Positions 11,701 through 13,589 of a stretch of 64,000 nt of DNA are shown here, piece after piece. The DNA is taken from the NCBI RefSeq assembly GCF_058153355.1, contig NZ_CM177019.1; one strand, written 5' to 3'. Position numbers: made by a program. Numbering within the stretch: position 1 is the stretch's first letter; each line of letters starts with the position of its first letter.

Positions 11701-13589
11701 TTTTCTTCCCCGCAACTTCAATTCTGTTTTGCGTGCCTGCTCCAGATTTTGCGATGTTTTTTTGCCCAGCACACTGAGAACGTGAGATACTCACAACTGT
11801 ATATAAATACAGTTACAGATTTACTTTCTTTGCAATCGATATCACATGGAGTGGGCAATGAACGAACATCATCAACCTTTTGAAGAAATACGGCATTATG
11901 GCACTGAAGGGCAAGAATTTTGGTCAGCGAGAGAATTGGCACCGTTACTGGATTATCGGGACTGGCGCAATTTTCAAAAGGTACTGGCCCGCGCGACTCA
12001 AGCGTGCGAAGCCAGCAATCAAGCTGCATCTGACCATTTCGTTGAAACCACCAAAATGGTTGTATTAGGTTCAGGGGCTCAACGAGAACTTGAAGATGTT
12101 CATCTCTCCCGCTATGCCTGTTACCTGGTAGTACAAAACGGCGACCCTGCGAAACCGGTTATTGCGGCAGGGCAAACTTATTTTGCTATCCAGACCCGAC
12201 GGCAGGAGCTGGCTGACGATGAAGCTTTCAGGCAACTTCGTGAAGACGAAAAGCGTCTTTTTCTGAGAAATGAGTTGAAAGAACATAACAAACAATTAGT
12301 TGAGGCAGCGCAGCAAGCTGGGGTAGCGACAGCTATCGATTTCGCCATATTTCAGAATCATGGTTACCGGGGACTGTATGGTGGATTAGATCAGAAAGCC
12401 ATCCATCAGCGGAAGGGGCTGAAAAAGAGTCAGAAGATCCTGGATCATATGGGTTCAACAGAACTGGCGGCTAATCTCTTTCGAGCTACCCAAACAGAAG
12501 AAAAACTCAAGCGGGATGGCGTGAATTCAAAACAGCAAGCTAACACCACACACTTTGACGTGGGTCGCAAGGTGAGGCAAACCATTCAGGAACTTGGCGG
12601 AACCATGCCTGAGGAGTTGCCGACCCCGCAGGTTAGCATCAAGCAGTTGGAAAACAGTGTAAAAATTACAGAGAAAAAATAGCAGAAACTAAAAACTCTT
12701 TTTGTTGATTGAGACACCCGATGCGTAAGCCAAGGTCCAGGTGCAGTGAACACAATGGCTAACATTGCACCTTTCTTTTCCACCCCTCAGTTTTAACCTA
12801 CTTTTTCTTATGCATTTTCTCAGACAAGAAGTCAGAAGAATGCATCTACGCTACAGAAAACAACGATTTCACATAACTAAAAATTATCAATTCCCTCTCA
12901 CCTTAAAAAATCTCAATCGTGACAATGCGCACAAATCGCTACCCTGCCAGACAGATTTTTAGGGAGAGAACCATGCTGTTACACATTTTGTATTTGGTTG
13001 GCATTACTGCCGAAGCCATGACGGGGGCGCTGGCGGCCGGACGACGGCGCATGGATACATTTGGCGTAATTATTATTGCGACCGCCACGGCAATTGGCGG
13101 AGGGTCAGTGCGCGATATTCTGCTGGGCCACTATCCGCTCGGCTGGGTCAAACACCCGGAATATGTGATTATCGTCGCTACCGCCGCAGTACTTACCACT
13201 ATTGTTGCTCCTGTAATGCCTTACCTGCGCAAAGTGTTTCTGGTGCTCGATGCGCTCGGACTGGTAGTCTTTTCTATCATTGGCGCACAGGTTGCACTGG
13301 ATATGGGACACGGCCCGATCATTGCCGTTGTCGCAGCTGTGACGACCGGCGTATTTGGCGGCGTTTTGCGCGATATGTTCTGTAAACGCATCCCACTGGT
13401 ATTCCAGAAAGAGTTGTATGCCGGTGTCTCATTTGCCTCCGCCGTGCTGTACATCGCGCTGCAACACTATGTTTCTAACCATGATGTGGTGATTATCTCC
13501 ACCCTGGTATTCGGCTTTTTTGCCCGTTTACTGGCGCTACGTCTTAAGCTGGGATTACCGGTCTTTTACTACAGCCACGAAGGTCACTA

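What the first reader, a model, noticed from the sequence alone, without database searches (positions are those of the whole stretch)
11795..11814. Perfect LexA box in the dinD promoter
AACTGTATATAAATACAGTT is a perfect 20-bp SOS box about 45 nt upstream of the dinD start, overlapping the likely -10 region. It supports the dinD call and SOS control of this gene.
Basis: partly seen in the sequence, partly recalled or inferred. Interest (0 to 1): 0.2.

Follow-up and report, generated by a model that had tools for sequence, protein, structure and literature searches.

The report
Known LexA operator of dinD
This is the well-known DNA site where the LexA repressor keeps the E. coli dinD gene switched off until DNA is damaged; it is ordinary in itself, but in other strains the same site, like other strong LexA sites, is a favoured landing spot of the mobile element ISKox3.

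Summary
The 20-mer AACTGTATATAAATACAGTT is at window 11795-11814 exactly as reported. It is the only LexA-type site in the 64 kb. A leave-one-out PWM scores it 25.6 bits (next best 10.3; best of 200 shuffles 20.0). The window is the E. coli pyrE-rph-yicC-dinD-yicG-ligB region, and the promoter and box are identical to K-12. The gene is dinD (NCBIfam equivalog, RefSeq start 11858), 43 nt after the box. Published K-12 data give HI 2.2 and LexA-dependent induction. The finding is therefore correct and already known.

Two corrections apply. The box is near-consensus, not perfect (17/20 to consensus, 18/20 self-complementary). The best sigma-70 candidate places the -10 just upstream of the box (11786-11791), so the box probably covers the transcription start; no mapped start was found.

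Three side observations came up. dinD with its box is a 1.16-kb presence/absence cassette. Only 2 of 80 DinD homologue loci in other species have such a box. ISKox3 (ISL3 family) inserts precisely into the 8-bp spacer of strong LexA boxes: 20/20 sampled copies, and about 279 E. coli genomes at dinD. I found no report of this.

The parts
11795..11814 (.). LexA (SOS) box of dinD, AACTGTATATAAATACAGTT
   Evidence: exact sequence. (25.6 bits in a leave-one-out PWM; the only such site in the window). Identical to K-12. Published HI 2.2 (PMC11228462).
11797..11800 (.). Left half-site core, CTGT
   Evidence: Read from the sequence. Invariant in all E. coli alleles examined.
11809..11812 (.). Right half-site core, ACAG
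   Evidence: Read from the sequence. Invariant in all E. coli alleles examined.
11801..11808 (.). 8-bp AT-rich spacer ATATAAAT. This octamer is duplicated as the target site when ISKox3 inserts in other strains. It is unoccupied in this window. Position 11808 is T>C in a common allele.
   Evidence: junction sequences. (223 + 56 genomes). (T14C allele).
11762..11767 (+). Predicted -35 hexamer TTGCCC (inference, not mapped)
   Evidence: best sigma-70-like candidate in the intergenic region (8.65 bits, 18-nt spacer). Conserved in the divergent allele.
11783..11791 (+). Predicted extended -10, TGaGATACT. The predicted +1 is about 11797-11799, inside the box (inference, not mapped).
   Evidence: Conserved in the divergent allele while flanking bases vary.
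11848..11851 (+). Shine-Dalgarno GGAG, 6 nt before the dinD ATG
   Evidence: Read from the sequence.
11858..12682 (+). dinD coding sequence (274 aa plus stop). The N-terminal part is a Bro-N domain.
   Evidence: ORF. (RefSeq coordinates). (PF02498, E 3e-11). (NF008573, 504.7 bits).
11674..11707 (+). yicC intrinsic terminator: stem ATGCCGC/GCGGCAT, 13-nt loop, T-run. It insulates dinD from yicC transcription.
   Evidence: Read from the sequence. The SMRT-Cappable-seq yicC transcript ends at NC_000913.3 3817606, about window 11703 with an inferred offset (PMC6131387 supplement). The consensus terminator scan missed it because the loop is longer than 8 nt.
11638..12798 (+). 1,161-bp dinD cassette: terminator, promoter, LexA box, dinD and 3' flank. 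It is replaced by 77 unrelated bp in dinD-less E. coli.
   Evidence: boundaries. (722 of 5426 genomes lack the promoter region).

Best explanation
The site is the LexA operator of the dinD promoter. In undamaged cells a LexA dimer binds the two half-sites CTGT (11797-11800) and ACAG (11809-11812) across the AT-rich 8-bp spacer. The box lies immediately downstream of the most likely -10 element and over the predicted transcription start, so bound LexA blocks RNA polymerase. When DNA damage activates RecA, LexA cleaves itself, the operator is vacated and dinD is transcribed from its own promoter, which is insulated from yicC by a terminator.

Shown here: the sequence, its statistical uniqueness in the window, its identity to the K-12 operator, and the gene's identity and start. 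Taken from the literature for the identical K-12 sequence: high predicted affinity (HI 2.2) and LexA-dependent damage induction. Inferred: the exact promoter hexamers, the +1 position, and therefore the precise mode of occlusion.
For: Exact 20-mer at the stated position. Leave-one-out PWM 25.6 bits, rank 4 of 18 known boxes, far above the window background (10.3) and 200 shuffles (maximum 20.0). Only one of four CTGT-N8-ACAG matches in the window has an AT-rich spacer and intergenic position. Promoter plus operator identical to a K-12 derivative except 1 nt at 11837.

RefSeq dinD and NCBIfam equivalog. Across 4,704 E. coli genomes with the region, the half-sites, the TTGCCC and the TGaGATACT are conserved even in the 90-95% identity allele, where neighbouring bases differ.

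Literature: HI 2.2, AZT induction 9.8x, lexA dependence 12x (PMC11228462). Ciprofloxacin time course for RNA and protein (PMC11002266). LexA dependence by RT-qPCR, and recovery of this motif by MEME (PMC3009722). Listed as a known SOS box (PMC6590174). The yicC transcript terminates about 90 nt upstream of the box (PMC6131387 supplement).
Against: No LexA binding or expression data exist for this particular strain. No mapped transcription start could be found. The promoter candidate is only moderately strong: 8/12 consensus matches, in the top 9% of 155-nt segments, and below the threshold of the standard scan. LexA control is not a conserved property of the DinD family, since only 2 of 80 homologue loci carry such a box, so comparative genomics outside Escherichia gives no support.
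Confidence: 0.97

Rival explanations
1. Same operator, different architecture. The -10 element lies inside the box (TATATA/TATAAA, 11800-11807, or TACAGT, 11808-11813). Transcription would then start about 11815-11820, and LexA would compete directly for the -10.
For: The spacer is TATAAT-like. In the Citrobacter werkmanii homologue the box lies 28 nt before the ATG, where a -10 overlap is plausible. The box-proximal candidate -35 GAGATA / -10 TACAGT scores 3.65 bits.
Against: All in-box -10 candidates score 3.65 bits or less, against 8.65 for TTGCCC-18-TGaGATACT. TATATA and TATAAA lack the critical final T and have no -35 partner. The upstream hexamers are conserved in the divergent allele.
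Confidence: 0.2
2. The palindrome is a chance or structural feature, such as AT-rich bendable DNA or a hairpin, and has no regulatory role.
For: The AT-rich intergenic region could throw up TA-rich palindromes. CTGT-N8-ACAG occurs 4 times in the window against 0.69 expected.
Against: No shuffle reaches its PWM score. It is identical to an operator with published LexA-dependent regulation. The half-sites are invariant across thousands of genomes. No RNA family matched.
Confidence: 0.01
3. The site is maintained mainly as a recognition sequence for something other than LexA, for example as an attachment or target site for mobile DNA, with LexA binding incidental.
For: ISKox3 inserts exactly into this spacer in about 279 genomes and into other LexA-type boxes elsewhere.
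Against: IS insertion destroys the site rather than using it. Most dinD-positive genomes (about 94%) have it intact. LexA-dependent expression is documented. Being a target explains vulnerability, not conservation.
Confidence: 0.02

Closest known systems
E. coli K-12 dinD (pcsA) LexA operator
   Same: Identical 20-mer, identical surrounding promoter apart from 1 nt at 11837, same locus (yicC-dinD-yicG), same annotated start codon. Published HI 2.2 and LexA-dependent induction.
   Different: The downstream gene is a different allele. DinD is 84% identical to K-12 overall, with nearly all differences in residues 12-83 of the Bro-N domain. No experiments exist on this strain.
Other high-affinity E. 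coli SOS boxes (tisB/istR, umuDC, sbmC)
   Same: Same CTGT-N8-ACAG core with a pure A/T spacer. Similar PWM scores of 28-29 bits against 25.6 and lowest HI values in the regulon. All four are the ISKox3 landing sites in E. coli chromosomes.
   Different: The dinD box has A/T at the outermost positions 1 and 20 (AAC...GTT) instead of TAC...GTA.
Sequence-specific IS or transposon target selection, e.g. the symmetric IS10 hotspot NGCTNAGCN and REP-targeting IS1397/ISKpn1 (recalled from general knowledge, not tested here)
   Same: ISKox3 shows a symmetric target with staggered cuts at fixed positions relative to two inverted half-sites, and it reuses the same few genomic sites in both orientations.
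   Different: The preferred target coincides with the operator of a global repressor (LexA), so each insertion disrupts an SOS operator. Whether LexA protein takes part is unknown.

Membership tests
LexA (SOS) box, gammaproteobacterial type | CTGT-N8-ACAG core with an AT-rich spacer, close to TACTG(TA)5CAGTA | tested here: met
   Core perfect, 17/20 to consensus, spacer ATATAAAT.
LexA (SOS) box, gammaproteobacterial type | Scores within the range of experimentally defined operators and above genomic background | tested here: met
   25.6 bits in a leave-one-out PWM, rank 4 of 18. Window next best 10.3; shuffle maximum 20.0. Published HI 2.2 against a cutoff of about 15.
LexA (SOS) box, gammaproteobacterial type | Positioned so that bound LexA occludes the promoter (-35, -10 or +1) | tested here: inconclusive
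   The predicted extended -10 ends 3 nt before the box and the predicted +1 is inside it. No experimental transcription start was found.
LexA (SOS) box, gammaproteobacterial type | Physical binding by LexA (EMSA, footprint or ChIP) | not testable with these tools
   The primary binding and ChIP papers were not held. Only expression-level evidence is cited.
LexA (SOS) box, gammaproteobacterial type | Downstream gene induced by DNA damage in a LexA-cleavage-dependent way | not testable with these tools
   Documented for the identical K-12 promoter (PMC11228462, PMC3009722, PMC11002266). Sequence identity was shown here.
dinD / DNA damage-inducible protein D (NCBIfam NF008573) | Full-length match above the curated equivalog cutoff | tested here: met
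   504.7 bits against a cutoff of 242, covering residues 1-274. N-terminal Bro-N domain PF02498, E 3e-11.
dinD / DNA damage-inducible protein D (NCBIfam NF008573) | E. coli chromosomal context rph-yicC-dinD-yicG-ligB | tested here: met
   ORFs and RefSeq annotation of near-identical genomes.

The most novel reading that the evidence does not exclude
The dinD operator in this window is an unoccupied member of a small set of preferred landing pads for ISKox3-group ISL3 insertion sequences, which home to strong LexA boxes. These elements cut so that the 8-bp spacer between CTGT and ACAG becomes the target-site duplication, splitting the operator. In complete E. coli genomes, four operators (dinD, sbmC, tisB, umuDC) would account for about 845 of 860 chromosomal copies.

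The bolder version is that operator-bound LexA itself guides the transposase, coupling IS targeting to the SOS regulon. No paper in the searchable library mentions ISKox3 together with LexA. The probability given is for sequence-specific homing to LexA-type boxes being real. I would put the LexA-protein-guided version at about 0.2. Whether it is truly unpublished cannot be settled here.
Probability: 0.85. Interest if true: 0.6.

Novelty: already known. Interest (0 to 1): 0.15.

Why it matters
The box itself only confirms a textbook annotation: dinD is one of the original din genes, and its operator is among the strongest in the SOS regulon.

The surroundings add some value. The operator travels with dinD as a 1.16-kb accessory cassette. 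Homologous genes elsewhere are mostly embedded in type I restriction-modification operons without LexA boxes, so SOS control of dinD looks like a lineage-specific acquisition.

The practically interesting by-product is ISKox3. This element is widespread on resistance plasmids and appears to insert almost exclusively into strong LexA operators. If so, it would deregulate or silence tisB, umuDC, sbmC and dinD in hundreds of clinical and animal isolates. That is a direct, testable link between a mobile element and SOS functions such as mutagenesis and persistence.

Tried and rejected
Transcription start. I searched supplements of Cappable-seq, Rend-seq (none held), Kim 2012 TSS profiling and SMRT-Cappable-seq (only the yicC transcript), and the phrase 'dinD promoter'. 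No dinD start was found. The tiling-array paper's 'transcript start' equals the annotated gene start, so it is uninformative.

Papers. The primary papers (the LexA ChIP-chip study, Yasuda 1996, Thomason 2015) are not held. One literature query was too loose and returned only noise.

Scans. The built-in promoter/terminator scan found nothing at its thresholds, so I used my own lower-threshold and weighted scans. Rfam gave no RNA family in 11400-13000.

Phylogenetic footprinting across species. It was rejected as support because 78 of 80 DinD homologue loci have no box, including three with the same yicC-dinD synteny.

Rejected readings. The ATG at 11846 as the start: it has no Shine-Dalgarno and is not the RefSeq start. 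The 103-aa antisense ORF 11718-12029: it overlaps the promoter and dinD, and nothing supports it.

Generic IS-boundary detection. It failed for several distant ISL3 relatives and was replaced by manual inspection of the junctions.

Full report
OBSERVATION. The 20-mer AACTGTATATAAATACAGTT is at window 11795-11814, exactly as reported. Its reverse complement differs at two positions, and it matches the LexA consensus TACTG(TA)5CAGTA at 17 of 20 positions. The CTGT-N8-ACAG core is perfect, but the 20-mer as a whole is near-consensus rather than 'perfect'. The bare core pattern occurs four times in the window (0.69 expected). The other three have G/C-rich spacers, and two of them are copies of one repeat.

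I built a PWM from 17 other published E. coli LexA boxes (PMC3009722 Table 4), leaving dinD out. The site scores 25.6 bits, fourth among the 18 known boxes. The next best site in the whole window scores 10.3 bits. The per-shuffle maximum over 200 dinucleotide-preserving shuffles averaged 10.7 and never exceeded 20.0. The site is real, far above chance, and the only LexA-type box in these 64 kb.

CONTEXT. The window is an E. coli chromosome segment with the gene order pyrE-rph-yicC-dinD-yicG-ligB. RefSeq annotates dinD from window 11858 to 12682. The protein matches the NCBIfam equivalog for DNA damage-inducible protein D at 504.7 bits (cutoff 242) and has an N-terminal Bro-N domain.

The annotated ATG at 11858 is preceded by GGAG at 11848-11851. 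An earlier in-frame ATG at 11846 has no ribosome-binding site.

Upstream, yicC ends at 11637 and is followed by a hairpin plus T-run at 11674-11707. A published long-read dataset places the 3' end of the yicC transcript at about window 11703, using an offset I inferred from gene coordinates (PMC6131387 supplement). dinD therefore needs its own promoter.

IDENTITY WITH THE KNOWN OPERATOR. The segment 11730-11857 is identical to a K-12 derivative except for one base at 11837, and the box is identical. For that K-12 sequence the literature reports the following:
- A heterology index of 2.2, third best in the classical regulon, with 9.8-fold induction by AZT and 12-fold dependence on LexA cleavage (PMC11228462).
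- Strong induction of both RNA and protein after ciprofloxacin (PMC11002266).
- LexA dependence by RT-qPCR in lexA(Def) and lexA3 strains, with this exact motif recovered upstream of dinD (PMC3009722).
- Listing of dinD among genes with a known SOS box (PMC6590174).

PROMOTER GEOMETRY (inference). The built-in scan found no promoter at its thresholds. My lower-threshold and frequency-weighted scans both pick -35 TTGCCC (11762-11767), an 18-nt spacer and an extended -10 TGaGATACT (11783-11791). This scores 8.65 bits, in the top 9% of comparable segments, and predicts +1 at about 11797-11799. Any -10 hexamer inside the box scores 3.65 bits or less.

A common divergent promoter allele gives weak support. 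About 977 genomes are 90-95% identical over 121 nt. In that allele the -35, the TG, the -10 and both LexA half-sites are unchanged, while bases in the promoter spacer, at box position 14 (T>C, 11808) and just downstream of the box differ.

On this reading the box spans roughly -3 to +17. It abuts rather than overlaps the -10 and covers the start site.

POPULATION AND COMPARATIVE PICTURE. Of 5,426 complete E. coli genomes, 4,704 contain the promoter region and 722 do not. In dinD-less strains, window 11638-12798 is replaced by 77 unrelated bp, starting directly after the yicC stop codon. That 1,161-bp block holds the yicC terminator, the promoter, the box, dinD and its 3' flank. The operator is thus part of an accessory cassette.

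Outside E. coli, DinD homologues of 64-82% identity occur in many phyla. Most are co-directional with and tightly packed against their neighbours. About half lie within type I restriction-modification loci: the upstream neighbour is HsdM or HsdS in 37 of 75 loci, and the downstream neighbour is HsdS, HsdM or HsdR in about 35 of 78.

Only 2 of the 80 loci have a LexA-type box upstream. Citrobacter werkmanii has one downstream of ibpAB (23.6 bits), and Paraburkholderia madseniana has one (20.6 bits). Three loci with the same yicC-dinD synteny (Pseudocitrobacter, Providencia, Morganella) have none.

SOS control is therefore a lineage-specific feature of the Escherichia cassette, not a family trait.

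SIDE FINDING: ISKox3 AND LexA BOXES. Some E. coli genomes matched the dinD region only from the middle of the box. In them an ISL3-family element, ISKox3 (1,316 bp, ends GGGTCTTCCC...GGGAAGACCC), sits exactly between CTGT and ACAG. The 8-bp spacer ATATAAAT is duplicated on each side. The element occurs in both orientations, and also on the divergent allele with duplication ATATAAAC, so there were at least three independent events. Junction-specific probes find 223 genomes in one orientation and 56 in the other.

I then sampled other genomic contexts of two ISKox3 transposase variants, which gave 20 copies. Nineteen have a perfect 8-bp duplication that is exactly the N8 spacer of a CTGT-N8-ACAG site. 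The twentieth has a one-mismatch duplication flanked by CTGT and ACAT.

The neighbouring genes are dinD, sbmC, tisB, umuDC, dinI, S24-peptidase or prophage genes, and plasmid genes. The 14 distinct reconstructed targets score 15.6-28.9 bits, and 12 of them exceed 23 bits. Chance flanking by both tetramers is about 1.5e-5 per insertion.

In complete E. coli genomes an internal IS probe finds 860 chromosomal and 493 plasmid places in 721 genomes. Empty-site probes are split in this many genomes:
- dinD: about 276
- sbmC: 271
- tisB: 206
- umuDC: 92

That totals about 845 of the 860 chromosomal copies. These four operators are also the four lowest-HI boxes in the published table.

Relatives with the same terminal repeats behave similarly:
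- ISSoEn4 of Sodalis (71% identity) lies in CACTGG|TCATTTAT|ACAGAC next to uvrD.
- A 71% identical E. coli relative obeys the rule on the left half-site only.
- An 86% identical Salmonella relative obeys it on the left flank, with a non-matching right flank.
- A 49% identical relative with different ends targets an unrelated sequence.

The target preference is narrower than LexA's own repertoire. Positions 6 and 15 are T and A in 27 of 28 half-sites, whereas 7 of 18 published boxes have CCAG. This leans toward direct DNA recognition by the transposase but does not exclude guidance by bound LexA.

ISKox3 can also land elsewhere under selection. Insertions in Klebsiella capsule genes, with the duplication ATTTGTAA, have been reported (PMC12057282); the flanks are not given there.

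No paper in the searchable library contains both 'ISKox3' and 'LexA', or dinD together with ISL3 and insertion. That is not proof of novelty.

Caveats: the sbmC, tisB and umuDC splits were not junction-confirmed at scale. Clonality was not assessed. The window itself carries no IS.

VERDICT. The finding is correct and ordinary: it is the known, high-affinity LexA operator of dinD. There are two corrections: the box is near-consensus rather than perfect, and it is probably over the transcription start rather than the -10. Interest in the finding itself is low. The ISKox3 observation is the item worth passing on.

Noticed in passing
window 11801-11808 (unoccupied here); L003 1686-3000, L088 2570-3885, L089 2570-3885: In about 279 complete E. 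coli genomes ISKox3 (ISL3 family) is inserted exactly in the 8-bp spacer of the dinD LexA box, and the target duplication equals the spacer. It occurs in both orientations and on two promoter alleles. It splits the operator and puts 1.3 kb between the predicted promoter and dinD.
   Followed up: yes
L090-L109 (ISKox3 contexts); L110-L114 (relatives); E. coli sbmC, tisB and umuDC operators: ISKox3 appears to home to strong LexA boxes in general. All 20 sampled copies lie in CTGT-N8-ACAG sites with duplication equal to N8. The dinD, sbmC, tisB and umuDC operators together account for about 845 of 860 chromosomal copies in E. coli. The property is shared by ISSoEn4 (71% identity) but not by a 49% identical relative. 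I found no report of this in the held literature.
   Followed up: partly
window 11638-12798; L004 3037-3113: dinD with its terminator, promoter and LexA box is a 1,161-bp presence/absence cassette. 722 of 5,426 E. coli genomes lack it and have 77 unrelated bp between yicC and yicG.
   Followed up: partly
window 11808; L085, L086, L089: A common divergent promoter allele (about 977 genomes) has the box variant AACTGTATATAAACACAGTT (T>C at box position 14). Several changes lie just downstream of the box, while the half-sites and predicted -35/-10 are unchanged.
   Followed up: partly
window 11891-12106 (DinD residues 12-83): The window's DinD is 84% identical to K-12 DinD. Almost all differences are packed into residues 12-83 of the Bro-N domain, and the rest is nearly identical. 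This mosaic allele explains the two-piece BLAST matches to K-12-type strains.
   Followed up: partly
L005-L084: DinD homologues of 64-82% identity occur across many phyla, including Chlorobi, Chlamydiae, Firmicutes and a Methanolobus MAG. About half are embedded in type I restriction-modification operons next to hsdM, hsdS or hsdR. This suggests a horizontally mobile gene with an R-M-associated role.
   Followed up: partly
L017 1444-1463; L043 1384-1403; L005, L008, L016 upstream regions: LexA boxes upstream of DinD homologues are rare and non-orthologous: Citrobacter werkmanii (downstream of ibpAB, gene apparently disrupted) and Paraburkholderia madseniana. Syntenic yicC-dinD loci in Pseudocitrobacter, Providencia and Morganella have none.
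   Followed up: partly
window 54347-54366 and 54638-54657: The identical 20-mer TGCTGTTGATGCTGACAGTG occurs twice, 291 nt apart. It contains CTGT-N8-ACAG with a GC-rich spacer and scores 10.0 bits on the LexA PWM. It is probably an internal repeat of a gene and not a LexA site.
   Followed up: no
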